Shown: positions 1,236 through 64,000 of the stretch, one piece after another
Position numbering within the stretch: position 1 is the first letter of the stretch
Layout of the letters: every line of letters starts with the position of its first letter
NCBI GenBank assembly: GCA_046563655.1
Contig: CM102286.1
Location: 15,314,001 to 15,378,000, forward strand
DNA: 64,000 bases
Source of the DNA: Yuukianura sp. NJ FZ-2021
Taxonomy: Eukaryota
Reading direction: 5' to 3'
Translations under genes and position numbers: made by a program
The notes under the pieces: generated by a model
Database searches by the model: none
What the model was told of the DNA's origin: nothing
The model's input: the letters and a program-made list of their open reading frames with translations, nothing else

Positions 1236-1242
1236 TTTCACA

Positions 1243-30860: not shown

Positions 30861-30862
30861 AA

Positions 30863-41080: not shown

Positions 41081-42170
41081 ATGCAGTTCGGACGAGACGC
41101 CAAGCCATTTCGGTGCAAATACATAGAAATGTACAACTTAAGGTACAATAAATGTACGAAAAGTAAAGAAAGAGACACCGATCTGAATGAAGAAGCGCTT
41201 TGCGTGGAAACTGCTTTGTCTTTTCCGTATCTGGGAAATCCGGATGATGAGGAAACCGAAGGAGACAAATTTTACAAGCAAGAGTTTGCAAGCGTAAAAC
41301 ATCGACGCATAAAACCGAAGCCTGTTAATGCTGCAAAACCTCAAACTATTGTTGCAAGTATCCCATCATTGGCTTGCGACCTGTTGGAGGATTCTAAAGT
41401 GTACGTCGAAAAACTGTTGCAACAACTTTGAATGATACTAACCTTTTATTCTTGAGTAGAGAATCTAAATGTGCCGTCGATGTCCCGGCAAATTTAGCGG
41501 TGCCACCAATCGATGTGTTAGCTACCCATAATGAAAATATTTTGAGGAAAGCAATTGCCTTAGTTCAGTAAGTTTTTGCCAACAATATGTTAGGTTAGTT
41601 TAGTCTTGAGTATAATTCTTCATATTCTTCTAGAGAAGGCGACTCCGATGTCCCTTGCGTTGGCGATGATTTTGTTGTAAAACCCGTTAAACTAGATGCT
41701 CCAGTGGAACGTGAAGAACTGATTTGCCCCAGTAGTTTGGCACCTTTGAATATTGAGCTTACTACACAAGTCCCACGGTTAGCATTAGTTAAGGTTATGT
41801 TAGTTTTCGTGTCTATCCAACAATACTATACGTGTCTAATTCTGTTTTGTGTTGCAGGAAGCGTGTGCCAAGGTTTTTTCTCAAGAATATAGAGAAACTG
41901 TTACTAGATTGCATTTACGAGGTTGCTGTTCATAGTGGGATGGACTCATTGGGAAGGAATGAACTCAAATGGAAAAAAGTATGCGAATTAGTTGCAGCTG
42001 GCAAAACTGATTTGAGAACAATACAATGGAAATGGCGTAGCCTAAAAAAGTATTTCTATGAGAAGCTCCTGAAGACGCATCGCTATAAATGTTATTATAC
42101 AAAACACTCTCCCATATATAGTTACTTTGAGTCTAAATACAATACAAGGCCGAAAATTAGACTTATGTAA
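41081..42170 (+). CDS. Spliced gene with C-terminal Myb/SANT-like (trihelix/MADF-like) domain
   Basis: Last exon FFLKNIEKLLLDCIY...LKWKKVCELV...RTIQWKWRSLKKYF. Three short putative introns. 5' end uncertain. Confidence 0.6.
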
Positions 42171-42702
42171 GACTCTGGACTGACTATGGAATTTCAAACT
42201 CTCTTGTTGCGTTATAAAAACTAAATAAATCTCAAAACTGGATGTTCGCAACCACACTTAGGAGTGCTTTTTCAATTAACCTTCATTTGTTCAGCTTGCC
42301 GTAGTCTGTGAATACCCTAACCTGGTGTGTCTCAGTCGTTGCTGTTTCTTTCAAAAAGGTTTGTTTCAATCCTGTTTCCTTCGGACTGCACTAACCTAAC
42401 TATCCTGATTTGATTGTGTCGTTGTTCGATTTCCTGCCAAAGAAGTCGCACACCAGTATTTGTTACCGGCAACGATTCACGTACCATCTTACGACTGGTT
42501 GTTGTCTTACTTTTCACTTAATGTCACAGTCCTACGACATTTGTGCTTTGCTTAGAGTCCGAAGTGTTGGGAGATAATCATTCCTTTCTCGCATTTTTTC
42601 ATAGTTCTTCCTCCGGTCGCTCCTATTATTTCAAATCAACTTTTAGAACGAGCAACAGTAATGTGACAAAATAAGCGAAAGCGACATAACAGTGAGAAGA
42701 AC

Positions 42703-43027
42703 GCTTTTTTTGCCGAAACGAGTTGCGTCTTCTGTTCACTGACAAAACTGCCGCAGAAAAAGAGCTCTGAAAGGGTTCCTCAGTCAAGGTTTTGTGAGTT
42801 TTGCTAAACAAAGCAGAAAAGCAGAAACTGCGTCTTCCCCTCTTTCCGAAGTGAACGTGTTCACATACAAACGCGACTTCTGCTGTGAAGCGTCTGCCCG
42901 CAACTTTCCCGAGCATTCGGGCCGAGAAAATGTCAAGTGTAAGCACGCAACTCGCAGGAAGCAAAAAACTGTGAGAACTTGCAACTAGCAGAAAGTCTAC
43001 CAGTTACTTTGTAATGTGAACCCAGCA
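42703..43027. mobile_element. Old non-autonomous DNA transposon remnant (possibly PIF/Harbinger-type)
   Basis: 42703-42842 is a diverged reverse complement of 46535-46676. Both carry repeated TGTGAAC-type motifs. Confidence 0.5.
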
Positions 43028-43204
43028 GAAGACTTAAACACTGGCGTTATTTTGAATCGACTGAAAACATCAAGCGAGAGAAACTCCTTTTATTTCCAGT
43101 TTAAGATTTGATTTGTGTGGTAGTTCGATTCGGAGATTTCGACAAGAATCTCACTTCTTGCTGTTTTGTCCCATTTTTTTTGAGAAACCCCTTTTGGAAT
43201 TAAA

Positions 43205-46111
43205 ATGCCAAAGGGTCAGTCCACAACCGTGTTTCGGCGTTGGAAGCACGTAGAATGCTCCGAAATTGAGGAGTTTGCTAAAACAAGGTCAAACCATAAA
43301 CCTACTTATGTTGAATTTTGGAGAACGTGTTCTCTTGTCAAGGTAAACTGTACTATTAGTGGTCATTTTCGTTAAGGTAGTTATTCACTCAATAATTCTT
43401 AATAATGTTCATTTCAGAACGGGACACGTACTGCAATGGGATGCAAAAATAAGTATTTGGAAATTATAAAATCCAAAACAACTTTGAATCCTGGAAACCG
43501 ACCTGTTGATATTTGGAACGGGCAGCAGGCGGCAAGTCCCATGAAACTGTTTCTGCAACGGGAAAAAGCGAAAGCTACGGAAGATAGCGATGGTTCGTTC
43601 TTGCATAAAAAGATGAGTATTATTTCTGCTAATAACAGTCGGTTTCATTTCAGACGAGATCGAGATTATTCGAGAAATAAAGGCGGAAAACACCAGCACA
43701 TTACAGTCTCAACTGAAGGCTTACGGATTTATCAAAACTGAAAAACAAACAGGAGAGGAATACTCCGATCGGTGCGGTTCACTGAATACGTCTAAAAAAC
43801 TACCTAGAAACCAAAGTCAACTGGACACCCCTGTTCAAGAAATTACACCTATATTCGTTGAAAGCCCTACATCATCATCATGGAAAACCAAGCCACAGTA
43901 CTTGCAAAAAAAAAGGAGGATTGACAGTTTCGACGTAGACGGTTAGTTTGTTTGTGAGTGACTACGTAGCAAGCATTACAGACTGAACCATTTTTATTGT
44001 TTTTCATTTTATATGCAGATGTTAGAGTCGAGAATTCGCCCAAGGCGACCACGTCACGCGCTGATATCAAGGAAGCTGATGAAACGATTTCTGTCACAAA
44101 GAATTTCCCACAGAATAGTGTTTGCCAGTCGTCTATCACACATCAGTCACCCATCCTTCCATCAGGTGATAATCATATCCCAAATTGGTTAAATGCTAAT
44201 TTCTCAGTTTGATTCAACTTTTGACTTTAGCAGCTAAGCGTTCAGGTTTGGTGATCAGTGCGGAGACAAGCAAAAAGTATATGAGTATGTATAAGCGGGT
44301 CAGATCACATCAAGATTCGGACATGAACGACATTCGTTTAATGGCGCTTAACATTGACACGTATGCTCACTCGCACACAGCCTAACCTAGAAGTAATATT
44401 ACAACTCACTGTTATATATTTTCTTACCTATTCCTTTTTAGTGTCGTCAACATTGCCTACGATATGCTCGGGTAATTGCTGATATTATATTCATTTTCGT
44501 CAAATGTTCAATTACTCACACTAACTAAACGCTTCCGTGACAGATTCACTTGTGAGTGCAATACCGAGAAAATGTTGGAATCAATTTTAATTCCTGAAAA
44601 GTCAACCGGAGAATCGGCCGACTTGAAAAAGCTTCTAATGTTGTAAGTGATTAGATTAAAGAGTTTATGTTGAATCTTTTTTATTTAATCATTTTTCTTT
44701 TTGTTGCAGCAACATCTTTGCAAGCCACAGTAATATTCGCTTCGTGGAAAAATTTGAAAGTATCGGCTTCAAGTTGTGTTCTGTAAGATTGGAGAATGTT
44801 GCGAACCCATCATGTAAAGCTTCTACAACGCAAGCAAGTTCATTGGCAGTTTTGCGTGAAAAAGATAGTAGTTCACTGCCTTGTACGCTAGAATCTGATG
44901 GTGATACATGCGGCCAAACTTCCCCACAGTATGAACTCACACAGTTAGCACCTGAGACGAATATTGAAAACGCCGAATCCACCACACCCAAGGGATTGGC
45001 TAGCAACATTGTAAAACTGGTAATACCTATGCAGTTGCTTAATTCCAATTAGGTTAGGTTTTCAATCCTTAGTTTTCTAACTCGCATTTTATTTTCCAGT
45101 CCGTTGATCGTGTTGCCAGAGTATACGTTCACGATTTGATGCAAGCGTACGGTATGCACCGGAATGGAAGTTTGTCACAAAAGATTACGGCAGTGTTGCA
45201 TAAAGGGGCAGAAATTCTTTCCAATTTGAATGGCAATCTCGCTGTAGTGACTGAGTTGGTTTACGTAAGTTTTTGCTGTAATTTAGCTACGCTGCTACTC
45301 ATGTTAAGCCTGGTTTTTTATATTTCAGTTACGAGTTGTGTCAAAGGCAGCTGGATCCGGAGTAAGGGTTGATATTTATCGAATGGAAAAGAACGTTCCA
45401 AAGGTGCGAAACGTCTTAATGTATTTTGGAACTGAATTGGAGACAATGATTTCTGAAGGCGACGTGGTTGTAGCAAATGGAGCTTGTAATAAACCCACAA
45501 ATTCAACAAAAGTCATATTCTTTAACCCGGCTTGGGCATTAATGGAAGTTATTCTGCTAAAACTGGTTGGTATTATCGATTTTATTCCCGTCTTTACTGC
45601 AATTGTGATGACAGCGGTTTAGTAATACGTTGTGATTTTTTAGGACATGCGGGAACTGGTTATCCCAATTGACGACAGGAGAGCTATCCCCGTGGGACCC
45701 ATGATGGACACTTTCCTCTTAGAGTGTACATTGGATATGGATTACGTAACATCTGTGGTCAAACTTGTTTGCAATGCAACTGAAGATGAAATTTTTGCCG
45801 TCATTTCGAATCCAATGTTTAAGAACAAAATTCTGCTTACATTTGAAAACTTATTTAACGACAAGGTGCAAGTGAGAATTACTGACAACCCAACTAGTGA
45901 TGAAAATGATCAAGATTATGCGTTTTTACGAGTAAAGCCGTTATTCTGTTCCAATAACGTTTTTACTTTGGAACCAAACGATACAATTAACTCATACTTT
46001 GAATTCGACCCCATTGAGTGCGACAAAGTGAATCGGCTGCTGCTGATGTTTGTTGCATCCACATCAACACAACATGTGACAGTCTCTCTGGAGTTGGTAC
46101 TTCATCACTAA
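43205..46111 (+). CDS. Multi-exon protein with N-terminal Myb/SANT domain and a shared unknown helical domain (paralog 1)
   Basis: RRWKHVECSEIEEFAK...PTYVEFWRT...|NGTRTAMGCKNKY. Central exons align with the gene at 51552. Internal exon structure around 43540-44230 is uncertain. Confidence 0.7.
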
Positions 46112-46498
46112 GACCACGGAATTAAAATGTGGTTTAAACAATTCTTTCAAGATTATGTCACCAGTGATTTTGACTGTAAATTATGACACCCAACGTGTAT
46201 AAGAATTTTTAAATTAATTTCAAATTATGCATCAGTAACATTTGGTGTATTAAATCTAGTAAAACCTTACGCCAGGTATATGATTGTAAATAATAGGGCA
46301 TTTAAAAAGCTAAATAAACTGACTGACTAAAATTGATGAAAGAATTTTTTAGGTAGTCACAATTATTGAGCCACTATTACAATGAGAGACAGCTAGAAGA
46401 GTGGGCATTTTGTTTTTTTTTCTTCACAGTTGCGAAATTAAACAGTACGGCTTTCAAGGAAAGTTGCGGGCAGACGTTTCAAAGGAGTTACAGCAAAA

Positions 46499-46803
46499 GT
46501 CGGGTTCATATGCGAACCCTTTCACTTAGGGAATAGGGGAAGGAATGCAGTTTCTGCCTTTCAGCTTCGTTTGACGAAGCTCACAAAATCCTGTCTGCCC
46601 AACCCTTTTGGAGCAGTTTTTCTGCCGCAGTTTTGTGAGTGTAAACAGAAGCCGCAACTCCTTTCGGCAGAATAACGTGCCAGCAACTTTTGATTTGATA
46701 AAATTTTCTCCACATTCCATTCTCTAATGTGAACACGCATCAGCAGAGACCACCCAGAATTCGAGCAGAAATCTGCGAGTTGCGGTGTAATGTGAATCCA
46801 GCA
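46499..46803. mobile_element. Second remnant of the same old transposon family, opposite orientation
   Basis: Imperfect terminal inverted motifs GTCGGGTTCATAT / ATGTGAATCCAGC, and internal similarity to 42703-42842. Confidence 0.5.
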
Positions 46804-46958: not shown

Positions 46959-49264
46959 ATGGGTAAGTTGTTGGCCTTTAATCCGTTTCTATTCATGTTG
47001 TGTAAACTTTTTTTAATTTGTCCTTTATCAGATGTCAATTTGGATGGAATTGTGATTTCTACCACATCGTGGAAGTGCTTGCCTTTATCCATTGGAAACA
47101 TGAGCATATTTGGTCGACTAGAATGTAAAATCGTTTCTTCGTCCTGGCTTAAGGGATCGGCAATTGCTTCGAGTCCAATAATTGTAAAGGTGTACATGAC
47201 AGAGTACTCTGGCTTTGATTTGAGCATTGTGTTGCAAAGTGACAATCGTATCGACTTCAAATACGTTCTTAACCACATCTACAACTCGTTTTATGATGCA
47301 TTAAATGATAATGTAGTAAGTCATCGCATCAATGTTATTTATAACAAACAGCAAGTTGACAATTCTTCTATAATTCAACTGTTTTCAATTATTTATAGAT
47401 GGCGGGTCGGAACACGTCTGTTCGGTATAGCCAAATGCGAGGCAAAGAAAACTTTTTGTCGTCGTCCTCATTCGTAGTGTTTATTGAAGATATTGAGATT
47501 TTTGGAAGTGTTTTACATCACTATGTTAACAATCGATTGCCCGAGTATAAACCTCTGTTTGTTCTCTGCAAATTCGGACAGAGTGGATCGTTTCAACGAA
47601 TGGCTTCTATTTTGTCGTCTATCTCATCAATGGAAGACGTATGTGAACTCGTTTTGCACGTAGCATATGATTTACCTGCTGATCAAGGAAAAATCCTACT
47701 TTGGAACAGAAGTGTGGTGTTTGATAAAATGAATCATATTAACAATTTGTATACTTTCGAGTACTTCGTTGGCGGTATCCCTGGTTACGGAAACTTCACA
47801 TTTGAGTCAAAAGTACATGAGCCTACCATGATTCTCGGAAGTTCGAAACTTAAGAAAATCAAGTTTTACTCTTCATTAGGAAAGTATCTTAGCAGTCAAC
47901 CCAATGTACCATTTTCTCAACCAAAGGTTTCCGAACTGCTTCTGAAACTATCAGTCTTTGATAAGCAAGAAATTAAAGACTCATCAAAATTGACGGAATG
48001 CTTTCAAGACATAAATTGCATTCGTGGAATTGTTGACAAGATACAAACGGAATCGCAATATGCTAGATGTGAATTGATCATCAATGCCACTATTCGCGAC
48101 TCTATTCAGGAAACACTACAAGATGTACGTACACTCGCCGAATCAATTGTTCTGCAGCTCGAGCTTACAAAGTGTATTCAGCAATTCACGTCACAGCGTA
48201 TGTATTTCTTGATTGATCGAACCGTAGGATGTTGCTTGGACACAATTCTAGAACAACTCGTAGCAGCAGATGAAGCTATTGCAAATAGAAGGAATTATCT
48301 TCTACCCATTGACAAGTACAAGAGTTTACTCACCTGCGAAGCAATAGTTTGCTTTATGTTCAGAGGGAGTGCAGTATCGACAGGAGGAGTTCGTAGGCAC
48401 GACAATCAACTTTTACGTGTATTGGAACTTGTTCCAGGAGCATTCCGAGACTCATTCAGCCGTTCGGAATATCTTTTTGACGCAATATCTACTGTTGTCA
48501 AAATTGAAAATGGAAAAGTATGTTTCCATGGCCCTACTGAATTTCTCCCTCAGTACTTGTCAAAATTAAAATTGGATCCGGCTAAAGATTTCACATTTGG
48601 AGACCTTTTCAATGCCTTACACGAACGTTCAAAAATTGCTTACGCCGCGAAAATCGTCGCCGCCTGGATATTTTCATGCACCATCTACAATTTGCTTGGA
48701 AGAAAACAATCAAGTACAAATTGTGCCTTGACACATAGATCTGTTGCATCATGTAAAGACTTGACCATTGGTAGCGGATATGAAGTGGTGAAACTGCTTG
48801 GGAATAGTTCAAGTTCAATCATGTGGATTATAGATGAATGCAGGAAAGTGGCAGAAAGATATGGCTTAAAGGATTGCTGGACTCGGGCACTAGCCTGTGA
48901 GTTAGAGAAATGTGGATTTAGAAATAAGGATTACGTTTGTTTCAACTATGGAGCATTAGGAGACAGCTGTATAATTGTTTTGCCATATATTTGCCTTAAC
49001 TTGGACAAGATTCATATTGCTGTTCCGATATGGGTTAACGTAATAACCTCCGTTTTAAATGATGAAACGGAAAGTAATGACAAGGTAGTCCTAGCTGCCC
49101 AAGTAGAGGTTTTGTTACAACGTTCAGTAGAAAAGTTGAGCAGTACTCAAAGGGCATCAGTTAAAATACGCGACATGATCGGTAAATTATTTGATAATGA
49201 TGGTTTTACAAACTGTCAATCTGAAGAGTACAAATTGCTGTTCCAAAATCCCTTTCCGTTCTAA
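46959..49264 (+). CDS. Orphan protein of ~717 aa with a 1.87-kb final exon
   Basis: 621-codon open frame at 47399-49264 is preceded by a TTTATAG acceptor. Upstream exons 46959-46962 (ATGG|GTAAGT) and 47032-47315 join in frame. No family recognised with certainty. Confidence 0.8.
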
Positions 49265-49598
49265 TTAATTTAATTTGTAAAAATTTAACGCTGTTTTAGA
49301 GCAGCTGTTTATAAGCCTGATATAAATAAAGCTGTGGATAGAGAAATTCTACATTCGTTGTTCTGCAAGTTGGTTGTGGTTTGGGTTTTGCATTGAATAG
49401 TAGTTTTCGTTCTTTTTGTGGTAAATTCAAATTTGTTGCAGGTACCATCCAATTGCTTTCTGCAGTGGAGTAAAGATATCTGCTCGCACAAGTCGTCCCC
49501 CTCCTCTTTTTGTTCAGTTTAATGGTTCATTTATCAGATTAAGAAGCATAAAGTAAATTAACAACGTTTCAGTTAAAGTTGGCAATTTTACTTTTAAA

Positions 49599-50014
49599 AT
49601 GCGGAGACACTGCAGTACAAGTATGAATCGGAATCATTGGCTGCCGTCGGAAGTAGCTGAACTTGTTGCATTTGCAAAGAAATGGCCGAAGGGAAACCCA
49701 ATGCGCATCGAATTCTGGGATACCTTCTCAGCGGTTAAGGTTAGTAGCACAATATAAACTTGCTTCTGAGAAAGATAAATTGGCGGCTATTGTCGGGTGT
49801 TGTATTTCTTTTTTTTTGTCAGAACGGACGTCATACAGCCAGTAACTGCAGAGACAGATACGAATGTATTGAAGTGAATCGAAGGGTTGTGCATTCTAAC
49901 AATGAATCATGGATTTCCCTTGGGATAGAAAAATTGCAGAATGAAGGCACTATATTTCGCCATCCTAGCTATACACCCCGAAATAAAGGAACCATGCGTA
50001 AGACAATTCCATAG
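49599..50014 (+). CDS. Short or truncated Myb/SANT protein (paralog 2)
   Basis: HWLPSEVAELVAFAKK...PMRIEFWDTFSAVK|NGRHTASNCRDRY, with the intron at the same position as in the genes at 43205 and 51552. 3' end unclear, next to a transposon. Confidence 0.65.
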
Positions 50015-50143
50015 CCTAACCTCTGTTAAATGAAGCCCAAAAGCGTCAGGCTAAAATTTCGTTTGACAATAGACAGCCAATTTAAAAGCTTCTGTATTTT
50101 GAATTTGCCTTTAACCGCGTTAAACAAACCGTTTTCAAAACTA

Positions 50144-51286
50144 CCGTATTTTCCCGTAGATAATACGCGTATTATGTATGAAATTTCAAGGAATTTGGGC
50201 GAGAATTTTGTTTTTAATTTTGAAATCAAAGAAAAATTTTCACTGTAAAACGTAATGATGCTTTTGCCACTAAACCTAAACTATTCTAACTTAACTAAAC
50301 CTAATTTTTTGGAGAGATTGACCCGAGAGCATTTTTTTTCTGCCACGTACGCCCGAAAAATCTCCAACTTTTCCAACAAATCCTTCGGAAGTGACCAACC
50401 GCAGTACTTTATCGTATTGAAAACTTGTTTCTTTTTATGAATCTGACATACCAAGCATCACAAGCGCAAAACTCGGGTAATTCCTTTCATTTGTGTAGTG
50501 TCAAAGCCATACATTTCATGGAGTGTAGCGTAAATTTCATAAGTTTAAATGAGAATTGGTTAACGTTGATTTTAAATTTGAAAGAGTCCTGTACCTTACT
50601 GAAGTCCCTGCTACCCGGGCTCTCAGGTTACGTTTTAGAAAAAGTCGACTCACTAAACTAGAAGCTTGGGTTATAGTAAAGCGATCTAGTCCGTTTTACT
50701 ACTTAGAAATTTTTTTCGAGTGACATGACCTATGACAACCCAAAAAATGACCTCTACAAAAGTTGTTGGGCTTGATGAGGGGATCATTTTTGTCCTGTGA
50801 CATATGACCCTGTGACCTTCCGTTGAGGCGATAGGTCAATTTGAAAGTTAGTTAGGTTAGGTTAGGTTAAACCTTCAAATTGACCTATCGCCTCAACGGA
50901 AGGTCACAGGGTCATATGTCACAGGACAAAAAATGATCCTCTCATCAAGCCCAACAACTTTTGTAGAGGTCATTTTTTGGGTTGTCATAGGTCATGTCAC
51001 TCGAAAAAAATTTCTAAGTAAAACGGACTAGATCGCTTTACTACAACCGAAGCTTGAACTCGGCGGTGTACGATTTTCGTAATATCTTTTGTTTAGGATT
51101 CATGGTTGGTTAAGGTCAAAAGTATAAATTAAATGCGTACATTTAAATTAAAAAAAAGTTTCCAGAAAAATGAATTATTCTTAGATTGGGAAGCTTAATA
51201 CGCGTTGTTCCCGCCCAAACCCAGTTTTAGTAAATTTTTAGACTGCGTACTATACACGGGAGCGTATTATAGACGCGAAAATACGG
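50144..51286. mobile_element. Non-autonomous Tc1/mariner-superfamily (Tc2/pogo-type) element, TA TSD
   Basis: TA|CCGTATTTTCCCGTAGATAATACGC ... GCGTATTATAGACGCGAAAATACGG|TA. Confidence 0.8.
50669..51048. mobile_element. Foldback MITE (GG...CC termini, 8-bp TSD GAAGCTTG; Merlin- or MULE-like) with TTAGG repeats at its centre
   Basis: Near-perfect ~180-bp arms. TSD at 50661-50668 and 51049-51056. Centre TTAGTTAGGTTAGGTTAGGTTA. Confidence 0.9.
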
Positions 51287-53449: not shown

Positions 53450-56345
53450 AGAATTGGAGTCCCGAGAAGACTCCCAAATGGAATCCAAAACTGGAGTCCC
53501 AAAGGTAACGCCAAAGGAAGCCAAAACTGGAGTCCGCTGTATGTTCCAGAATTGGAGTCAAAAATAGATTTCAAAACTAGCCCTTAAAACACGAAATAAA
53601 GTTCAAAACTGGAAACCCAAAAAGAACCCCAAATGAATTGCAAAATTGAAATTCCAAATCAAACCCCAAATGGAGTCCCAAAGTAAGTCCCAAATGCTAT
53701 CCAAAATTGGAGTCCTAAAGAGAGTCCAAAATGAAATCCAAAATTAGACTCCCAAAGAAAACCCCAAAGTGAATCCCAAATTGGACTCCTAAAGTGAGTC
53801 CAAAATGAAATCCAAAATTGGAGTCCTAAAGGGAACCCCAAAGTGAATCCCAAATTGGAGTCCCAAAGGGAGTCCAAAATGAAACCCAAAATTGGAGTCC
53901 TAAAGGGAACCCCAAAGTGAATCCCAAATTGGAGTCCCAAATGCTATCCGAAACTGGAGTCCTAAAGAGAGTCCAAAATGAAATCCAAAATTGGAGTCCT
54001 AAAGGGAACCCCAAAGTGAATCCGAAATTGGAGTCCCAAATGCTATCCTAAATTGGAGTCCTAAAGAGAGTCCAAAATGAAATCCAAAATTGGAGTCCCA
54101 AATTCAACCCCAAATGGAGTTCGAAATCGGACTCCCAAAGAGAGTCCCAAATGCTATCCAAAATTGGAGTCCTAAAGAGAGTCCAAAATGAAATCCAAAA
54201 TTAGACTCCCAAAGAAAACCCCAAAGTGAATCCCAAATTGGACTCCTAAAGTGAGTCCAAAATGAAATCCAAAATTGGAGTCCTAAAGGGAACCCCAAAG
54301 TGAATCCCAAATTGGAGTCCCAAAGGGAGTCCAAAATGAAACCCAAAATTGGAGTCCTAAAGGGAACCCCAAAGTGAATCCCAAATTGGAGTCCCAAATG
54401 CTATCCGAAACTGGAGTCCTAAAGAGAGTCCAAAATGAAATCCAAAATTGGAGTCCCAAAGAAAACCCCAAATGGAGTTCGAAATCGGACTCCCAAAGAG
54501 AGTCCCAAATGCTATCCGAAATTGGAGTCCTAAAGAGAGTCCAAAATGAAATTCAAAATTGGAGTCCCAAATTCAACCCCAAATGGAGTTCGAAATCGGA
54601 CTCCCAAAGAGAGTCCCAAATGCTATCCGAAATTGGAGTCCTAAAGAGAGTCCAAAATGAAATCCAAAATTGGAGTCCCAAATTCAACCCCAAATGGAGT
54701 TCGAAATCGGACTCCCAAAGAGAGTCCCAAATGCTATCTGAAATTGGAGTCCTAAAGTGAATCCCAAATTGGACTCCTAAAGAGAGTCCAAAATGAAATC
54801 CAGAATTGGAGTCCTAAAGGGAACCCCAAAGTGAATCCCAAATTGGAGTCCCAAATTCAACCCCAAATGGAGTTCCAAATCGGACTCCCAAAGAAAGTCC
54901 CAAATGATATCCGAAACTGGAGTCCTAAAGAGAGTCCAAAATGAAATCCAAAATTAGACTCCCAAAGGGAACCCCAAAGTGAATCCCAAATTGGACTCCT
55001 AAAGAAAGTCCAAAATGAAATCCAAAATTGGAGTCCTAAAGGGAACCCCAAAGTGAATCCCAAATTGGAGTCCCAAATGCTATCCTAAATTGGAGTCCTA
55101 AAGAGAGTCCAAAATGAAATCCAAAATTGGAGTCCCAAAGAAAACCCCAAATGGAGTTCGAAATCGGACTCCCAAAGAGAGTCCCAAATGCTATCCGAAA
55201 TTGGAGTCCTAAAGAGAGTCCAAAATGAAATTCAAAATTGGAGTCCCAAATTCAACCCCAAATGGAGTTCGAAATCGGACTCCCAAAGAGAGTCCCAAAT
55301 GCTATCCGAAATTGGAGTCCTAAAGAGAGTCCAAAATGAAATCCAAAATTGGAGTCCCAAATTCAACCCCAAATGGAGTTCGAAATCGGACTCCCAAAGA
55401 GAGTCCCAAATGCTATCTGAAATTGGAGTCCTAAAGTGAATCCCAAATTGGACTCCTAAAGAGAGTCCAAAATGAAATCCAGAATTGGAGTCCTAAAGGG
55501 AACCCCAAAGTGAATCCCAAATTGGAGTCCCAAATTCAACCCCAAATGGAGTTCCAAATCGGACTCCCAAAGAAAGTCCCAAATGATATCCGAAACTGGA
55601 GTCCTAAAGAGAGTCCAAAATGAAATCCAAAATTAGACTCCCAAAGGGAACCCCAAAGTGAATCCCAAATTGGACTCCTAAAGAAAGTCCAAAATGAAAT
55701 CCAAAATTGAGTCCTAAAGGGAACCCCAAAGTGAATCCCAAATTGGAGTCCCAAATGCTATCCGAAACTGGAGTCCTAAAGAGAGTCCAAAATGAAATCC
55801 AAAATTGGAGTCCTAAAGGGAACCCCAAAGTGAATCCCAAATTGGAGTCCCAAATGCTATCCGAAATTGGAGTCCTAAAGAGAGTCCAAAATGAAATACA
55901 AAATTGGAGTCCCAAATTCAACCCCAAATGGAGTTCGAAATCGGACTCCCAAAGAGAGTCCCAAATGCTATCCGAAATTGGAGTCCTAAAGAGAGTCCAA
56001 AATGAAATCCAAAATTGGAGTCCTAAAGGGAACCCCAAAGTGAATCCCAAATTGGAGTCCCAAATGCTATCTGAAATTGGAGTCCTAAAGAGAGTCCAAA
56101 ATAAATCCGAAATTGGAGTCCCAAATTCAACCCCAAATAGAGTTCCAAATCAGACTCCCAAAGAGAGTCCCAAATGCTATCCGAAATTGGAGTCCTAAAG
56201 AGAGTCCAAAATGAAGTCCAAAATTGGACTCCCAAAGGAAACCCCAAATGAAATCCGAAATTGGATTCCCAAAGAGAGTCCCAAATGCTATCCAAAATTG
56301 GACTCCCAAAGGGAACCCCAAATGACATCCAAAATTGAATTCCCA
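53450..56345. repeat. Satellite array 2: 12-bp-based (AAAATTGGAGTC / CTAAAGAGAGTC / CAAAATGAAATC) with 108-, 445- and 679-bp higher-order units
   Basis: TTGGAGTCC cores at multiples of 12 bp. Higher-order periods are visible as repeated identical pseudo-ORFs (53659/54104; 54857/55536). Confidence 0.95.
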
Positions 56346-56622
56346 AAAAAAAACAGCTGAAAAAGAATAGTACTTAAATTGAATCCAGGTTAGGCTTCTA
56401 ACATAAATCCCAAATCGCAGTCAAAAATACATCCCTACATTGATCCAATCAAATTTATACTTACTGCTCTGCTTATCTAGATTGTGGCCAGCGTGTTTCC
56501 TCTGTTTTTTGAAAAGTGTTCAGTTGAGTTTGGAAATCCGACCTGAACAGAACCTAGACTGTGAAACACCGGATCATTTTTTTTACATTCCTTCCACAAA
56601 CTAAGCCAAGCTTAAGCCGAGA

Positions 56623-59600
56623 ATGGAGGGAGCGCAAGAACAGGAGTTCAGCAATGCTGGTATTGATCCTGGATCTGCATCGGCTACTCCTAGCTTTGTC
56701 AAATACCAGCCGACATGTAATTTTAAAGTTTGCTTTAGTCGTACTGTTTACCGGCATTAATTTTTTTGTTTCTTTAGTGGCTTGCGCCCTACCTGAGAGG
56801 GTTCATCCAGCAAATGTTGTAGAGTCATCATCATTGGCAGCTATTAAGCTACCCCAACTGACGTATCGTGTCACACCATCGGTACTATACTGCAATGCCC
56901 TGTCCTCTTTACAAGTAGAAGCTATAGCTTTGAGCGGTCATACGCACAGTACCTTCAACGGTGATAGAAGAAATGCGATGCTTATAGGTGGGTTGTTCAA
57001 TTATGTTGTCTTATTGATATCTTAACCTTCGATTACTTTACTTCAAATTTAGGAGACGGGGCGGGGATTGGTAAAGGAAGAATTATAAGCGGGGTGATAA
57101 AGGACAACTTTGAGAAAGGACGCCGAAAGTCATTGTGGTTCTCGAAAACGTATAGCTTGTTTGACGACGCTTGCCGAGACTTTCGTTCCATTGGCCATAA
57201 AGCAAGTTATTTGAAAAGAATGGACCACGTCTTCATCGACGGTGCTATTGCTGCTGCTAATGAATGCTGTATTTTTACAACTTACGCTGCATTTCAAAGG
57301 AAGGGAGATGCAAAAGTTGCTGCTCTTTTATCATGGCTTGGAAAAGGCTTCAACGGGGTTGTAAGACTTTTCAAGGTTATATCTGCTTTTTCTACTTCAT
57401 TTATATCTCCTTTACAACAGATCGCACTTGACGAGTGCCACGAAGTGAAAAATGAAAAGTGCAGATCATCCAACATTATACATCAATTAGATACTTGTGT
57501 CCCTAAAGCTCGTATTCTCTACTCGTCCGCAACAATTGCAGAAACATTGGAAGGACTGTGTTATTTACATCGACTAAATCTTTGGGGTGAAAATACGCTG
57601 TACCCAGGTGGCTTTTCCCAAATGGAACAAGAACTCCGGAAAATGTAAGTTTCAATGTGTTGGCAGTAATATAACCTACCTAACCTAACTTTCATAATCC
57701 TGATCTAGTGGAATGCTTGGACTGGAACTTATTGCAATGGAGCTCAAGAGTCGTGGTGCTTACGTCGCGCGTCGTCTGGATTTTTCAGATGCATCTTTCT
57801 CTCTCGTTAAAATAAAACTCACAGAAGATCAGCGCGCCAAGTATAATGCGTGCGTTTCCATTTGGAACGACATTTACGACCATCTACTGCGACTTCAACA
57901 AAAATCTGTAAAGCGTTACTTTTGGGCGCAACACCAACAATTTTTCCGGCTGCTCTGCTTATCTTTTAAAATACCCGAAGTCATCAAAAACATCAAGTAT
58001 GCATAGCAAGGCAGTAATATGTGAGTAATATGAGTAACAATGCATTTTAATATTATCGCACGATCCTTTGTTGCAGACGCCATTTAAAAGAAGGCAAAGC
58101 AGTCATTGTAGGGTTGCAGTCAACGGGAGGGTTTTTGTCTGCGAAGCGCCAGCGACGCGAACTTAAACTTTTGTCGAGCTTGGAGTCTAAGCTTTTAAGC
58201 GTAGTACGTCAAACGTTTGGTGAGTGCCAACCTTTGTCTGTTCAGTATTTCATGCCAGATGTTTCGTATTTGTATCACTTGAAAACTAATACACAGAACC
58301 CGGCGTGCCGAGGTATGAAATGAAAATGAGGGTCGTTGATCTCAAATTGCCAGCAAGTCCACTAGATGCTCTGGTAAACCGTTTGGGTCCTCGTAAGGTT
58401 TCCGAGGTAATCTACATTTTTGCACTTTATCCTTACTTTATTTTCTTAACGTAACGTTGGTTTTTAATTCAGTTAACCGGAAGATCAGTAAGGCTGGAAA
58501 AAGTTGGAACCAAATTCAAATGGCGTACTATTCGAGGAGAGAAGAACGATCGTTTAACCCACTTTATGAACGGCAAAACTCATGTAGCAATCATCTCTGC
58601 TGCGTGTTCAACTGGAATTTCTTTACACGCCGACCATCAGGCTAAAAATCAAAAGCAGCGGGTGCATATGACAATTGAGTTGCCCTGGTCCGCTGAGCAG
58701 GTACAGTTCAATTTTTACTGCTAGGTAACCTAGGTAACCTTTGGGCAGCAAATTTAATATAATTTTTGTTACACATTAGGTCATTCAGCAATGCGGTCGA
58801 ACCCTTCGTAGCGGTCAGTCCAGTGTTCCAAAATATGAACTAGTTGTCGTGGATGTGGGCGGGGAGAATCGATTTGGTTTTGGCGTTTCTGCAAGAATGT
58901 CAGCGCTTGGTGCGATCACACAAGGAGATCGGACTTTTTCAATCAACAGCATCGAGGAATTTGACTTGAATACATTTTACGCTGGAGATGCTGTGACCTA
59001 CACTTTGAAAACGATTAGCACTGAAATACCGCCATTGATTCGATATCCTGGCACAAATATGATCACCTTCTTCAGCGAGGCCTTTAAAGTTTTATCCCCT
59101 GTCGGGTTAGTAGCGATGGGAAAACTTTCTCCGTACATGACGAAAACGATATATGTCAACAAATTCTTAAATCGGTAGGTTAAAGTTACGGTGTTTCCAC
59201 TCATGTAAGGTTAGGTTAGGTTAGGTTATGTTATAGTCATATACAGGTCGTATCATATTTTCTGTGTTACAGGCTTTTGGGTGTTCCGCTTCCGCAACAA
59301 AACACTATCTTCAATTACTATCTAGACATCTACAACCACACGATACAACAGCATAAACAAGCAGGATGCTATGAAGGAGGTGTTGTTGGTAAGTTGTCTT
59401 CTACTTATATTATTAAGAATTGTAACTTTAATGTATATTATTTTTGCTCTAGATTTTGGGAAACCGAAAGATTACAAAATCACTTCTGTCGCTTTAGAAG
59501 ACCGCAGTACAATTGAAATTTTTGCCGTTATAATCGACTGTGGAATTACCTTCGATCGAGCATTTGACATTTATCGAACTGAACGAAATTGTCAATTCTA

Positions 59601-60153
59601 CGCAGGAAAAATAGGAAAAAATCTTTGTGTTTACTTGGCCATACCGATCCCGGATACGCACAAATTTTCACTACTATTCCCATTTGGCCTCCTTCCTACC
59701 AAATATGACGACCCACATTTTTCTAAATCCTTTACTGCTCGCTCCTGGGACCAAGCTCGAGATCTTTGGAATACCAACTACGCTTACAAAAGTTGTTGTC
59801 ATGCTTACAGGTGAGAAAATGGCACAATTGGAGCATTTGTTTTACTTACTAATTTCCTGACTCATTTATGCACTTTCAGTTCGCTACCTTGTCCAAATTC
59901 TGCCAATGGAAGTTTTTGTGGGGCTGGAAACCGATATAAACTACGAATAATTGTAACTGGCGTTCTGTGGTCTAACGTCCAACTGATTGACAAACTCTTC
60001 CGTTCTTGTTACATCAAATCCTTGCAGCTGGTGCGATGTCATTTAAATCTTGGTCCAACACGCCCCAACGTCGTGGTGGGTGTGGAGGTACCAACAAAAA
60101 ACATGTCAACCCTAGAAAGAAAATTAGGAAAGAAATTTTACCATTGTAATTAG
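56623..60153 (+). CDS. SBNO: Strawberry notch-like SF2 helicase, divergent and compact, apparently intact (~13 exons)
   Basis: [32 protein letters not shown] (Walker A), LDECH (Walker B), [96 protein letters not shown]. All are collinear with animal SBNO. No internal stop found after splicing. Confidence 0.92.
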
Positions 60154-60880
60154 CGAAGTGTTTTTCACCCTACTTACTTTGAAATCTAAACCAGTTATGT
60201 TATCCGAACTAATTGTTAGATAATTGAAACTATTTATATAATGTAACCTAGGTTAGTCTTTTCCTCGGACGTTTGAAGCCAAAATGTTTAAGTTATTTAT
60301 AAAAAAAAATGCCAAAGAAATTTTTGATGGACTTATTTTGGCAAATAAAGTGGTATGTAGCTTCTCGACAAAGCTTTGCGTTGGACCTTCGTTTTTTTAT
60401 TGTAACGTTTGAGCAGTAGCGATCAAGGTAGTGTGACGAAACAGTTTAGTCTTCACCAGTTTGTTCAGTAACTCTTTTTGTTTTGAATTTATCCTTGCGA
60501 AAAAACTTGCGAAACATGAGTCGCCGTGCCTTTCTATGGTAATAATTTATAATGTAAATAGGAATCGTAGGGAACCTGTAGAAGAAGAATTGTTGGAAGA
60601 ATTTTGAAAATTCCTGGATACCTGAGTTACTGGACAACCTCTTGTAGGTTAGGTTTGCTGTAAATTTGTTGCTCTAGCAACCTTGGTAGTGGTGCTATAT
60701 GTCAGCTTTTTGGATGGTGATGGAGTGATTTGAAGTGTTCTTGAACTGTCAGTTAGCTATGTCCTTGACGAGTACAGGTCAAAGTCATCACAACTAAAGG
60801 ACTCTTGACAAAGTCAAATGTCAAAGGCAAACGGGATAAGGTATTAGACTTAGAGTATTGTTGAAGTAGTGATAAGTCGA

Positions 60881-61290
60881 GCAGGAAGTGGTTAACTCAA
60901 GCAGGAGGTTAGGTAGGTTACCTGTTAGTGGACAGTGTGTTTGACTTTGGGAGTATTTTATTGTTCAGTTCATTGTCAGGACGTTAAGGTGACCTTCAGT
61001 AAGGCGTGCTGGAAAAGATTCCAAGTCGGAGTGTCCACCAGACTCTGGACATTGTACATTGAGACTTTCAGTAGTGAACATCTTCGTGCAGGAAGTGGTT
61101 AACACTAGCAGGAGGTTAGGTAGGTTACCTGTTAGTGGACAGTGTGTTTGACTTTGGGAGTATTTTATTGTTCAGTTCATTGTCAGGACGTTAAGGTGAC
61201 CTTCAGTAAGGCGTGCTGGAAAAGGTTCCAAGTCGGAGTGTCCACCAGACTCTGGACATTGTACATTGAGACTTTCAGTAGTGAACATCT
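60881..61290. repeat. Recent tandem duplication, period 207 bp
   Basis: GCAGGAAGTGGTTAAC...GTGAACATCT at 60881-61083 and 61088-61290, almost identical. Confidence 0.95.
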
Positions 61291-61339
61291 CTCGAGACCG
61301 CTGACTCCTTGTGGCACCGTGTCATCATCGACTGGAGAA

Positions 61340-63856
61340 ATGGAACAAAAGGTAAGGTTATTGCTTTAAGAATTGTCTGGTTTCTAATTGAACAAAGAAA
61401 TTTCCTTTCAAACTGTTGACGTTTTTTGGTATTTCTTTCTTAGCTTACCTTGTCCACGTTCAACACCACAAATGAAAAGCAGATCAGAATTGTCCCTACC
61501 GCGATGGACATTCCTGCTGATTTGCTGTTATGTTCCATGGCTGATGTTTTGGCAATCGGATTATCCGGAAATGGAACGATAGATTTTACGCTTGAAGACT
61601 GGAAGTTACTATTCGATGAACCAAAGGGGTCGGAAAAAGCAAAGAAATTTTGGTCTACTTGTTTTGTCCACATCAAAAAATTCTGTTGCAATCTTAAGAA
61701 CGTAGCCTACACCCCAAGGACGGCGACATTGAAGTCTTCGCGGTTCATTTCCGCTGATACCAGAATCCAACTGCCTCAATCGTTGGTAGATTTCGTTAGT
61801 AAAACGAAATTCGGCGAAAAGTTGGCTGCGGAGGGAAATCAAGCTGATGCCAACCAATTCATTTCTGGGATCTCCACGCTTATGAAAGGCTCATTCAATG
61901 CAGGATATGTCGCTTTATTCCTGTTTAAGTGTTACCGTAAGTGTACCCTATTTTCTGTCAGATGACTTGTGGTAAAAACTTGTGGTAACTTTTGCTAGAA
62001 TGCTTGCCGGATGTTCTCCAAACTGTCCCAATCAAAGACGTTTTGGGCGAGAGAGGACTAACCCTTATGCATAAAAGCCTCGGTCAATCCCACGAATTCC
62101 TAAACTTGGTGTGGCAACAACCCCTGGAGCTCCCGGCTACACTGCAAGAGGTTTTTTCTCCGCGGAAACTTCCGACCCAAACGCAAGAAGACCCCGAGCT
62201 ATGGTTCTTTTTTGGAGAGCGCATCCAAAGAGGAGTGGAGAATAACGCCTGCTACAATGGGGCTGTCAAACGTGCGAAGAGCGTTTATTCTGGGAAAGGC
62301 GGGAAAACAAAGAAGGCCAAGAAGAATGCTGCAAAGGAACCCAACCTTAGCGATTCGGGTAAAATTAGTACTCTTGGATGATGTTTTATTCTTAGCTGTT
62401 GATTTGCATCAAACTTTTTATAGGTTCTGACTCGGATTCCAGTTCCAGCTCGGTGTCTTCCAGTGCGACTTCAGTTCAAACAAAATCTACCACTAAGCAG
62501 CAAGCACAGGTGATACTGGAAGAAGACATCAAGTCAGCAACAGAAAAGTTGGACAAACTACAGAAGGAAGAAGTAAACTGCATCAACGAAATCCGAGCTC
62601 AGGAAGAAAAGCTAGCGAATGTGAGGTCCGAGATCACGCTGACGAGATGCAGTCTAAACGAGTCAATTTTTCGCCTGCACTTGTGCAATATTTCCAACGA
62701 CCACGGAGATTACATTTTCAACGCGATTTCATCAAATGCAAAGTTTAAGGAGATGGTAGCTGAATTTGAAGAATTCAGAAGTTTTGTATTAGAACAATAC
62801 GGAAAACTGGCGCGTTCGGAACGCTCGTTTGAAAAATCACCAAAAGAATTGGTAGAAGCTGCATTGGAGATTTCATTCAAGACTTTCGACACTCAAAAAC
62901 ACAAGGTAATTTATTACTTAAACCAGGAATTATGTTAATCTAAAGTAAACTATACTTGTATTTAGACTTCCGAGACGTTTCTGATGCCACCCCCAGTGAG
63001 CTCCCGCTCAAATCGATTCCAACCATTAGGTTTGGAGTATATCTTACCTCTACCGACTCCAGTGAGATCTGTACCTTCGAAGGGAATACTTGACCAGTCT
63101 ATTGCTGTGAGTATAACCTAACCTAATGAAAAACATGCAAATGTACTAATACCTAACCTAATACAGGGATTTGCGAGAACTATGGGACATCATGCTAGAA
63201 AACCTACCAACAGCATTGCCGGGTCCAGCTCACATAACATCACTATGGAAGAGATCATCACTGCCCGAAAAAAAACCACCCCGCAAATGGTGACTTCAAG
63301 GACCAACTCAGACAAAGAGGCAGAAGTTTATTACGGCAACAGTACGAATCACATAAATTGTTTTTGTTCTGACAAATTGTGACCATGACTTAATATTTCA
63401 GGCCAAGATAACGGGGAAACTTCGTCAGTGGTGCTGCGTGAGAGATCCGTGATGGAAGTTCCTGCCCTCTCAATTCAACCAGAAAATTCAGTCCAAATTG
63501 ACCAACCCAATATACAAGTGCCTTCCGTCGCCGAGGAAATTGAAATACGAACTGACTTGCTGGAGGAAGTGACACAGAATATCGTTGATGCATTCGGTGG
63601 TAAATTTGTTTCACTGTTTCGCAATAACCTTGCCAACCTAAACTAACCTCATTTTACTTTTGAATATGTAGGTTCACCTGAGAGTGAGGGCACGCACGAA
63701 AGGGTAGGTAAAGCTCCTGCCCGGGTAGGTAACGCTCCTGCCCAGGATTCGTTTCAAGAGTTCATTGATACACGGGATGAAACTTATGAAGTACAAATGG
63801 ATGAACATGGGACACCAGTTTTTGGGAATGATTCTGGGATAGGGCATATGTTCTAA
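61340..63856 (+). CDS. Orphan multi-exon protein with a basic NLS-like stretch, Ser-rich linker, coiled coil and acidic tail
   Basis: Successive open frames (61444-61936, ~61999-62358, ~62424-62905 and later ones) bounded by GT-AG sites. KGGKTKKAKK. Heptad-like EEDIKSATEKLDKLQKEE. Stop TAA at 63854-63856. Confidence 0.65.
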
Positions 63857-64000
63857 ATGTTATGACTAAGTTGATACGGTGAAGCCACCCTTGATCATGA
63901 ACTTAAAGGTTAGTTAGTTTGCATTTGTAGTTTAGAATCATGACAAATTGATATTTATCGGCCATTGACTATTAATGAATTAATTGACAAAATTGTTAAT

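What the first reader, a model, noticed from the sequence alone, without database searches (positions are those of the whole stretch)
41589..63920. Telomeric TTAGG/CCTAA motifs recur inside the small introns and spacers of the accessory genes
Seen: short telomere-like runs at 41590, 44381, 45049, 50015, 50271-50304, 50848, 52551, 57674, 58721, 59208-59228, 60646, 60907, 63115, 63151, 63634 and 63908, in both orientations and mostly within short introns. Host introns left of 29 kb show very few. GGTTAG resembles a 5' splice donor and CCTAAC a branch point. Inference: the block may recruit a telomere-repeat-binding protein (host, or one of its own Myb proteins), may have evolved in a subtelomere, or may have introns seeded by TTAGG-bearing micro-elements.
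Basis: partly seen in the sequence, partly recalled or inferred. Interest (0 to 1): 0.75.

Follow-up and report, generated by a model that had tools for sequence, protein, structure and literature searches.

The report
Telomere-repeat scars inside short introns
Short pieces of the chromosome-end repeat TTAGG really are scattered through the small introns and gaps of a gene cluster in what is probably a springtail, and they look like harmless scars of repaired DNA breaks, not the seeds of the introns or the mark of a mobile element.

Summary
Between 41.5 and 64 kb there are 17 exact TTAGG-periodic runs of 8 nt or more, and 9 of them are 10 nt or more (about 0.12 expected from shuffles). The 14.6 kb of genes on the left has one 8-mer, which is chance level. 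TTAGG is the only pentamer that reaches 19-21 nt. Six of the nine long runs lie in five predicted short introns, none lies in supported exon sequence, and one forms the exact centre of a 394-bp palindrome. The flanks share nothing, so these are not copies of one micro-element.

A homologous helicase gene on a metagenome contig (L001, 41-54% protein identity) has the same intron positions. It also carries telomere-like runs in the same three introns, with different length, place and, in one intron, orientation. The introns therefore predate the runs.

Best reading (0.55): these are short interstitial telomeric sequences left by break repair, and they persist only where they cannot put stop codons into a reading frame. 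Donor or branch-point likeness explains one or two sites at most. No RNA data, polymorphism or whole genome was available.

The scan has already noted TTAGG repair scars elsewhere in this genome (e1-7470529, e1-7495224, e1-7499285). The shared three introns remain unexplained.

The parts
41589..41598 (+). GTTAGGTTAG, 10 nt, at +22 in predicted intron 41568-41633 (66 nt, GTAAGT donor)
42316..42323 (-). CCTAACCT, 8 nt, in the spacer between two genes; chance-level length
42391..42400 (-). CTAACCTAAC, 10 nt, in the spacer 42168-43183
44381..44389 (-). CCTAACCTA, 9 nt, at +21 in probable intron 44361-44441 (GTATGC...TTTTTAG)
45049..45060 (+). TTAGGTTAGGTT, 12 nt, at +30 in predicted intron 45020-45099 (80 nt); a separate CTAAC lies at -20
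50015..50022 (-). CCTAACCT, 8 nt, just after the stop of ORF 49748-50011
50662..51055 (.). 394-bp near-perfect palindrome (arms about 188 nt, 95-99% complementary). Its 20-nt centre, 50850-50869, is the run GTTAGGTTAGGTTAGGTTA (19 nt).
   Evidence: (pairs I2, I4, I7)
57645..57708 (+). Intron I2 of the SBNO-like helicase gene (64 nt). ACCTAACCTAAC at 57678-57689 overlaps the branch-point zone (CTAAC at -21 and -26).
   Evidence: exon continuity from the Pfam AAA_34 hits; position shared with L001
58701..58779 (+). Intron I5 (79 nt) with the degenerate (CTAGGTAAC)2; the longest exact run is only 7 nt. The homologous L001 intron holds (CCTAA)5.
59175..59272 (+). Intron I6 (98 nt; neighbouring introns are 60-69 nt) with (TTAGG)4 at 59208-59228. 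A 32-nt unit, GTAAGG...TTATAG (59205-59236), lies between two TCAT copies. Removing 36 nt leaves 62 nt.
   Evidence: FLNR|LLGVP junction from the Helicase_C_4 profile continuity
60645..60655 (+). TAGGTTAGGTT, 11 nt, in the region after the helicase gene's stop (60150). It lies about 100 nt from a 42-nt high-copy motif (60507-60548).
60877..61290 (+). 207-bp tandem duplication (98% identity). Each copy carries AGGTTAGGT (60906 and 61113), so the run predates the duplication.
63107..63166 (+). 60-nt predicted intron with two C-rich runs, 63114-63126 and 63151-63161 (24 of its 60 nt), arranged as a 37-nt-period direct repeat. TACTAAT lies between them.
30862..30914 (+). Outside the finding's range: (TTAGG)~10, starting in register with the AAGGTTAG that opens a 50-nt unit repeated 2.2 times (30761-30868). 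It is followed by decayed units and then a 12/25-nt satellite (31.1-38.5 kb).
56798..60150 (+). SBNO-like helicase gene (AAA_34 and Helicase_C_4) with ten predicted introns of 60-98 nt

Best explanation
The runs are short interstitial telomeric sequences. A few TTAGG units were added or copied at broken DNA ends, by telomerase or by template switching into telomeric DNA, and were then sealed into the chromosome. They have no function of their own. They persist only in introns and spacers, because a pentamer repeat puts a stop codon (TAG or TAA) into every reading frame in either orientation. Within ~65-nt introns they survive only in the free middle part between the donor and the branch point. 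The block is rich in them because it lies in a break-prone, repeat-laden stretch (satellites, palindromes, tandem duplications) of fast-evolving, lineage-specific genes.

Shown: the enrichment; its specificity for TTAGG; absence from exons; lack of shared flanks; introns older than their runs.

Inferred: the role of breaks and of telomerase.
For: Enrichment and specificity for TTAGG:
- Nine runs of 10 nt or more against about 0.12 expected; 0 of 500 shuffles per block reach the observed count.
- TTAGG is the only pentamer class above 12 nt.
- (TTAGG)n is the reported telomere repeat of Collembola (passage in PMC8977481).

Not a mobile element:
- No shared flanks.

Not in coding sequence:
- No run lies in exon sequence supported by a profile or homologue.
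- A + strand ORF of 80 aa or more overlaps only 63151, and I read that as an ORF running into an intron.

Insertion into existing introns:
- Intron positions I2, I5 and I6 are shared with L001, while the runs differ.
- The homologous introns are otherwise unalignable.
- I6 is 98 nt among neighbours of 60-69 nt, and drops to 62 nt without the 32-nt unit and one TCAT copy.
- L001's I5 is 110 nt, and about 75 nt without its tract.

Links to DNA breaks:
- The (TTAGG)~10 tract at 30862 begins in register with an 8-nt AAGGTTAG seed. Its two upstream paralogous units show the uninterrupted continuation. This matches the in-register microhomology test of PMC2246262 (section 9).
- One run is exactly the centre of a 394-bp palindrome, where hairpin or cruciform breaks are expected (the break-at-centre idea is recalled knowledge).

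Precedent:
- Human ITSs are absent from exons, and the authors give the same stop-codon argument (passages in PMC7215372).

The runs are real:
- Contigs from two studies agree.
Against: - No empty allele or orthologous empty site was seen for any of the short runs, so insertion is inferred, not observed.
- Four DNA runs show no length variation, which gives no polymorphism support.
- Long runs are denser in introns than in spacers. Six of 9 runs lie in 2108 nt of predicted intron out of 8890 nt outside + strand ORFs of 80 aa or more. That is about 0.008 by run, or about 0.02 by locus (my arithmetic). Random neutral insertion does not predict this.
- The same three introns hold the runs in two diverged homologues (1 in 84 for the top three, or 3 in 36 at 9 nt or more). 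That hints at selection or at a site preference.
- Removing the runs would leave some introns unusually short (63107-63166 would be 36 nt).
- The gene models rest on ORF chaining and splice rules, without RNA evidence.
Confidence: 0.55

Rival explanations
1. Functional intronic element. The telomere-like runs are kept by selection as binding sites in DNA (a telomere-repeat-binding or Myb-type factor) or in pre-mRNA (UAGG-binding hnRNP A/B-type proteins on G-rich runs; tandem CUAAC branch sites on C-rich runs), and they tune chromatin or splicing of these genes.
For: The three highest-scoring introns (I2, I5, I6) are the same in the window gene and in L001, despite 41-54% protein identity and otherwise unalignable introns. 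Long runs prefer introns over spacers. I5 and I6 have non-consensus donors in both genes: GTACAG and GTAGGT in the window, GTAATG and GTACAC in L001. Protein binding to telomere-like words is recalled knowledge, not a call.
Against: Orientation flips between the homologues in I6. Length varies from 7 to 25 nt at the same intron. The window's I5 holds only a degenerate 7-nt match. Other runs sit in spacers, in a palindrome centre and in a duplicated non-coding segment. The coincidence rests on nine introns and a post hoc cut-off. No expression or binding data exist (one search lists no RNA run).
Confidence: 0.15
2. By-product of splice signals plus slippage. The donor consensus G|GTTAG(T) and the branch point CTAAC are near-telomeric words, and small duplications of them give the dimers.
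For: Three of 30 predicted donors begin GTTAG, and 8 of 30 introns have CTAAY at -8 to -45. 57678-57689 is a doubled branch-point word. 41785-41807 is telomere-like around a GTTAGT donor.
Against: No run of 10 nt or more overlaps the donor in use. G-rich runs start at +22, +30 and +34. Only 1-2 of 6 intronic runs lie in a branch-point zone. Other pentamer repeats never exceed 12 nt, whereas TTAGG reaches 19-21 nt. The 16 left-hand introns use the same signals and carry no run. Three runs of 10 nt or more are not in introns.
Confidence: 0.08
3. Intron birth or a mobile micro-element. The introns were created by, or carry copies of, a small TTAGG-bearing insertion (introner-like, or telomere-repeat filler turned into an intron).
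For: Telomere-like sequence makes up 24 of the 60 nt of intron 63107-63166. The 32-nt unit in I6 begins GTAAG, ends TATAG and lies between two TCAT copies. The scan reported telomere-repeat introns in other genomes (e1-7377310, e1-7377132; leads only).
Against: I2, I5 and I6 are at positions shared with L001, so they predate their runs. The flanks share nothing. The 32-nt unit lies inside an intron, not in an exon. The age of the other run-bearing introns could not be tested.
Confidence: 0.05
4. Subtelomeric heritage. The block once lay beside a chromosome end and picked up the runs by exchange with telomere arrays, rather than by repair of internal breaks. This is not exclusive of the best explanation.
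For: A (TTAGG)~10 tract and three satellite arrays lie in the window. Earlier notes on this genome describe subtelomeric patchworks and TTAGG scars 123 kb further right (e1-7496131, e1-7470529; leads only).
Against: The position of the window relative to chromosome ends is unknown. Earlier notes place it at least 14.5 Mb from the start of its piece. L001 shows the same feature in another organism, next to a different downstream gene.
Confidence: 0.15

Closest known systems
Short interstitial telomeric sequences inserted during double-strand-break repair in primates, rodents and horse (PMC2246262: outline and section 9 read; PMC7215372: passages read)
   Same: A few exact telomere units at internal sites; absent from exons; found in introns; no transposon flanks. 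The 30862 tract starts in register with a telomere-like word, as at many mammalian sites.
   Different: The repeat is the pentamer TTAGG, in an arthropod. Density is very high (9 runs of 10 nt or more in 21.75 kb). Runs are shorter, 2-4 units. There is an apparent excess in ~65-nt introns, whereas the human intron share matches random insertion (PMC7215372). No empty orthologous site was seen here.
Chromosome healing, or de novo telomere addition at seed sequences (as summarised in PMC2246262, section 9)
   Same: The (TTAGG)~10 tract continues directly from an AAGGTTAG word of a local repeat unit.
   Different: The tract is internal and is followed by other DNA, so the end was rejoined rather than kept as a telomere.
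Telomere-word cis-elements such as plant telo-boxes, and internal sites bound by telomere proteins (recalled; TRF2 at interstitial sites appears only in the search listing)
   Same: Short telomere-like words inside genes, recurring in homologous genes.
   Different: No fixed position, orientation or length here, and no binding or expression evidence.
Telomere-associated giant retroelements with co-oriented, intron-bearing accessory genes (bdelloid Terminons/Athena; recalled, no call)
   Same: Co-oriented, intron-bearing, lineage-specific genes near a telomere-repeat tract.
   Different: No reverse transcriptase or other element hallmark among 117 ORFs. The L001 homologue has a different downstream neighbour.

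Membership tests
Short interstitial telomeric sequences (repair-inserted) | A few exact units of the species' own telomere repeat at a non-terminal site, beyond chance | tested here: met
   The Collembola repeat is TTAGG according to a passage in PMC8977481. That the organism is a springtail rests on earlier scan notes only.
Short interstitial telomeric sequences (repair-inserted) | Insertion shown against an empty orthologous or allelic site | tested here: inconclusive
   Contigs from four DNA runs show no indel at any site in 56450-63999. Support is only indirect: the excess length of I6 and of L001's I5 equals the tract, and the intron positions are shared with L001.
Short interstitial telomeric sequences (repair-inserted) | Bases at the break in register with the inserted repeats (the telomerase signature) | tested here: inconclusive
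   Met for the 30862 tract, with 8 nt in register judged against two paralogous 50-nt units. Not testable for the short runs, which have no empty site.
Short interstitial telomeric sequences (repair-inserted) | Excluded from coding exons | tested here: met
   The gene models have no RNA support.
Introner-like or other intron-generating mobile elements | Copies share sequence beyond the simple repeat and have target-site duplications | tested here: not met
   Flank comparison of 18 sites. Only one 4-nt TCAT pair was found, at I6.
Introner-like or other intron-generating mobile elements | The introns are young (absent from homologues) | tested here: not met
   I2, I5 and I6 are at positions shared with L001, which has 41-54% protein identity. 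The other run-bearing introns were not testable.
Telomere-associated giant retroelement (Terminon-like) | Reverse transcriptase or other element core gene in the block | tested here: not met
   None among the 117 ORFs of 63 aa or more (nearly all 80 or more) from 15-64 kb. The block may extend beyond the window.
Functional telomere-word cis-element | Conserved presence in homologous positions across diverged genes | tested here: inconclusive
   The same three introns carry runs in two homologues, but orientation, length and place differ.
Strawberry notch (SBNO) helicase family (the gene that holds I2, I5 and I6) | AAA_34 P-loop domain followed by the Helicase_C_4 domain | tested here: met
   Pfam hits above the curated cut-offs on five ORFs, with a sixth just below. 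The best database relatives reach only 31-33% identity. The N-terminal ~450 residues of those relatives have no match in the window.

The most novel reading that the evidence does not exclude
Telomere-like tracts are a maintained feature of particular introns (I2, I5, I6) of a springtail SBNO-like helicase gene family. They are renewed by repeated telomerase-type insertion and kept by selection because they act on splicing or chromatin: UAGG or CUAAC arrays in the pre-mRNA, or sites for a telomere-repeat-binding protein. Break repair with telomere repeats would then be a regular source of intronic regulatory sequence in these animals.
Probability: 0.13. Interest if true: 0.65.

Novelty: new member of a known kind. 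Interest (0 to 1): 0.36.

Why it matters
It extends a repair signature known from mammals to a basal hexapod, at unusually high local density. It also gives a concrete set of loci for asking how often telomere repeats are used to patch internal breaks in arthropods. The recurrence of tracts in the same three introns of two diverged homologues is a small, testable oddity: either a site preference of the repair pathway or a functional intronic element. For the scan, the block need not be treated as a mobile element on this evidence.

Tried and rejected
- RNA evidence: no RNA holder listed, so all introns are predictions.
- Polymorphism: contigs of X1-X4 laid on 56450-63999 differ by one base and have no indel. 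The few 'joints' have sides of 23-35 nt and unknown content, and I did not use them.
- More homologous loci: two viral-contig scans found none. The single metagenome scan gave four loci. L001 was informative. L002-L004 are more distant, have higher G+C and carry no run.
- The rest of the L001 contig could not be searched because the record is not held.
- Protein Atlas on the 621-aa ORF 47399-49261 gave only helical-repeat look-alikes at 0.91, with recognition below the tool's stated level. Not used.
- A general alignment of homologous introns showed no conservation apart from the telomere-like words. I therefore dropped the idea that the shared 'TACCTAACCT' in I2 is inherited.
- A generic intron predictor gave many opposite-strand false positives. 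I used only + strand predictions consistent with ORF chains.
- Literature: 'springtail' with 'TTAGG' (8 papers) and 'Collembola' with 'interstitial telomeric' (2 papers) gave nothing on interstitial repeats in springtails. 'Intron gain' with 'telomeric repeat' and 'double-strand break' (6 papers) gave nothing relevant in the one paper I opened (PMC6759080).


Full report
WHAT THE WINDOW IS. No whole genome is held for it. The sequence looks like arthropod nuclear DNA. Earlier notes of this scan on the same genome call it springtail-like, which I did not verify independently.

Layout of the window:
- A 315-bp satellite in 43.8 copies at 1242-15041.
- Ordinary + strand genes at 16-28 kb: TPR, UDP-glycosyltransferase, RMD1-3 and acyltransferase (Pfam).
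- T-rich short repeats at 29.7-30.6 kb.
- A 50-nt unit repeated 2.2 times, running into (TTAGG)~10 at 30862-30914.
- A 12/25-nt satellite to about 38.5 kb.
- Block A (39.4-53.6 kb), with a MADF-domain gene, three small paralogous genes, a 621-aa ORF of no known family and others.
- A second satellite at 53.6-56.4 kb.
- Block B (56.45-64 kb), with a Strawberry-notch-like helicase gene (AAA_34 and Helicase_C_4) and one more gene.
None of the 117 ORFs scanned hits a transposase, integrase, reverse transcriptase or polymerase family.

THE OBSERVATION. The window holds 19 exact TTAGG-periodic runs of 8 nt or more. One is at 25561, one is the 47-nt tract at 30862, and 17 lie between 41589 and 63161. 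Five are degenerate or not telomeric, and five real ones were missed.

Nine runs are 10 nt or more: 41589, 42391, 45049, 50851 (19 nt), 57678, 59208 (21 nt), 60645, 63114 and 63151. In 500 dinucleotide-preserving local shuffles per block, the mean count of such runs is 0.07 in block A and 0.05 in block B, and no shuffle reaches the observed 4 and 5. The left 14.6 kb is at chance, with 0 observed against 0.07. A mismatch-tolerant scan agrees.

Generic pentamer slippage does not explain the runs. Other pentamer classes give runs of at most 12 nt. TTAGG is first in block B and joint first in A, and it alone reaches 19-21 nt.

The left/right contrast is not due to coding density. The space outside + strand ORFs of 80 aa or more is 6521 nt on the left and 8890 nt in A plus B. 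If the rate were equal, all nine long runs falling on the right has a probability of about 0.007 (my arithmetic).

Contigs of four DNA runs from two studies reproduce 56450-63999 with one base difference and no indel. The runs are therefore real, and they are not length-variable in those samples.

WHERE THE RUNS SIT. I chained + strand ORFs with GT...YAG introns. For the helicase gene I checked the junctions against Pfam profile continuity and against homologues. This gives 30 predicted introns (2108 nt) in blocks A and B, and 16 (1027 nt) on the left.

Five of the 30 hold six of the nine long runs. None of the 16 holds a run of 8 nt or more. A seventh run (44381, 9 nt) lies in a probable intron at 44361-44441. 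The other long runs are:
- in a spacer (42391);
- after the helicase gene's stop (60645);
- exactly at the 20-nt centre of a 394-bp near-perfect palindrome at 50662-51055.
Two 9-mers (60906 and 61113) are the two copies of a 207-bp tandem duplication.

Relative to non-ORF space, introns are over-represented: about 0.008 by run, or about 0.02 by locus (my arithmetic). This rests on gene models without RNA support, because no RNA run was listed.

Within introns the runs start at +8 to +34 from the donor, with the second run of 63107-63166 at +45. That is mostly the free middle of these ~65-nt introns.

SPLICE-SIGNAL LIKENESS. Three of 30 donors begin GTTAG, and 8 of 30 introns have CTAAY at -8 to -45. 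Only 57678-57689 is a doubled branch-point word, and 63151 is borderline. No long run overlaps a donor in use. The genome-wide form of the test could not be run.

NOT A MICRO-ELEMENT. The 80-nt flanks of 18 sites, oriented alike, share nothing except overlapping neighbours, the palindrome arms and the 207-bp duplication.

A HOMOLOGUE ELSEWHERE. One metagenome scan with exon 58780-59175 found L001, the first 5628 nt of a 16.2-kb contig with 37% G+C. It encodes a homologue of the helicase gene with 41-54% identity over eight exon pieces in the same order. Nine intron positions are shared.

L001 is itself enriched, with 6 runs of 8 nt or more against 0.67 in simulations (0 of 300 reach it). Its runs lie in the introns homologous to I2 (ACCTAACCT), I5 ((CCTAA)5, 25 nt) and I6 (CTAACCTAA). 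A fourth, 17-nt run lies inside a ~635-bp element bounded by inverted repeats.

Longest exact run per intron, window / L001:
- I1 6/4
- I1b 6/4
- I2 12/9
- I3 4/7
- I4a 5/4
- I4b 4/7
- I5 7/25
- I6 21/9
- I7 4/5
. The top three introns coincide. That is 1 in 84 if independent, or 3 in 36 if only runs of 9 nt or more are counted. The cut-off is post hoc.

The homologous introns are otherwise unalignable: diagonal alignment scores are no better than off-diagonal ones. In I6 the orientation is opposite.

Two conclusions follow. First, these introns predate their runs, so the runs did not seed them. Second, the runs were acquired or renewed independently in the two lineages. Intron lengths fit insertion. 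I6 is 98 nt among neighbours of 60-69 nt, and becomes 62 nt without a 32-nt unit and one of its two flanking TCAT copies. L001's I5 is 110 nt, and about 75 nt without its tract.

MECHANISM. I take the runs to be short interstitial telomeric sequences left by break repair. The closest described case is the insertion of TTAGGG repeats at double-strand-break sites in primates, rodents and horse.
- In that work, bases in register with the insert at the break point to telomerase (PMC2246262, section 9).
- Human sites are absent from exons, and the authors give the stop-codon argument (PMC7215372, passages).

Two local observations link the repeats to DNA ends.
- The (TTAGG)~10 tract at 30862 continues directly from the AAGGTTAG that opens a 50-nt unit. 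The two upstream copies of that unit show what should have followed. This is an in-register seed of 8 nt.
- One run forms the centre of a long palindrome, where hairpin or cruciform breakage is expected (recalled knowledge).

Telomerase involvement, the timing of the events, and the reason for the regional excess are inferences. I have no empty site for any short run.

WHAT DOES NOT FIT NEATLY. Three things do not fit: the excess in introns over spacers; the coincidence of I2, I5 and I6 in two homologues; and the fact that 24 of the 60 nt of intron 63107-63166 are telomere-like. These keep open a functional reading (sites for a telomere-repeat-binding factor, UAGG or CUAAC arrays in the pre-mRNA) or a site preference of the repair process. 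I rate the functional reading at about 0.13-0.15.

- A subtelomeric past is compatible with the TTAGG tract and the satellites, but it is untested.
- Only one gene has a recognised Myb/SANT-like (MADF) domain, and nothing links it to TTAGG.
- Nothing marks the block as a mobile element. In L001 the helicase gene is followed by a different gene.

RELATION TO EARLIER SCAN NOTES. These notes are leads, not evidence. The same genome already has notes on TTAGG scars at break junctions 123 kb to the right (e1-7470529), at satellite borders (e1-7495224) and at a gene-fragment junction (e1-7499285). A further note describes a similar satellite-flanked gene cluster judged not to be a mobile element (e1-7499269). 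The 30862 tract, followed by a satellite, repeats the pattern of e1-7495224, and I checked that here.

VERDICT. The feature is real and telomere-derived, and it is most likely a set of neutral repair scars. It is a new arthropod example of a known kind, at high local density, with one unexplained regularity worth a follow-up.

Noticed in passing
window 30761-30914: A 50-nt unit repeated 2.2 times (100% identity). Its third copy is cut after its first 8 nt (AAGGTTAG) and continues as (TTAGG)~10, then decayed units (TTAGAG, ATAGG), then a 12/25-nt satellite. It looks like a healed and rejoined DNA end with an in-register seed.
   Followed up: partly
window 1242-15041: A 315-bp satellite in 43.8 copies at 97% identity, with strong negative GC skew.
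   Followed up: no
window 31100-38500 and 53600-56400: Two satellite arrays built from related 12-13-nt words (TCAAAATGGAAG-like, with higher-order periods of 25 to 170 nt). The many single CCTAA pentamers there belong to the satellite unit and are not telomere-like runs.
   Followed up: partly
window 40512-40965: A perfect palindrome (arms 40544-40672 and 40685-40813, 129 nt, 100% complementary, 12 nt between them), framed by four copies of a ~44-nt unit in alternating orientation. It looks like foldback or MITE-type elements. Its centre is T-rich, not TTAGG.
   Followed up: partly
window 42737-42909 and 46458-46641: An inverted pair of a ~100-170-nt repeat (80-90% complementary), 3.5-3.7 kb apart, bracketing the gene at 43.2-46.1 kb. 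A short direct repeat lies beside each arm (42993 and 46769).
   Followed up: no
window 60507-60548 and 60775-60810: Two short segments with roughly ten-fold higher contig depth in run X1 and many loose ends in all four runs. They appear to be high-copy dispersed motifs in this genome.
   Followed up: no
window 43184-43372, 49557-49754, 51450-51674: Three paralogous small + strand genes share a W...EFWDTF...V(K/M)V first exon and an intron at the same place. None matches any Pfam family, even at E up to 5.
   Followed up: partly
window 57361-57420: A 60-nt intron of the helicase gene is in frame and free of stops, so it reads through as part of a 226-aa ORF. The homologous L001 intron (712-804) exposes it.
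   Followed up: yes
window 56450-56800: The SBNO-like gene appears to start right after the satellite. It lacks a match to the N-terminal ~450 residues of its database relatives, so it may be truncated or have a novel start.
   Followed up: no
L001 3325-3959: A ~635-bp insert bounded by 44-51-nt inverted repeats rich in GCCCGAAC words sits after the last matched helicase exon. It carries a 17-nt (CCTAA) run 32 nt inside its left arm.
   Followed up: partly
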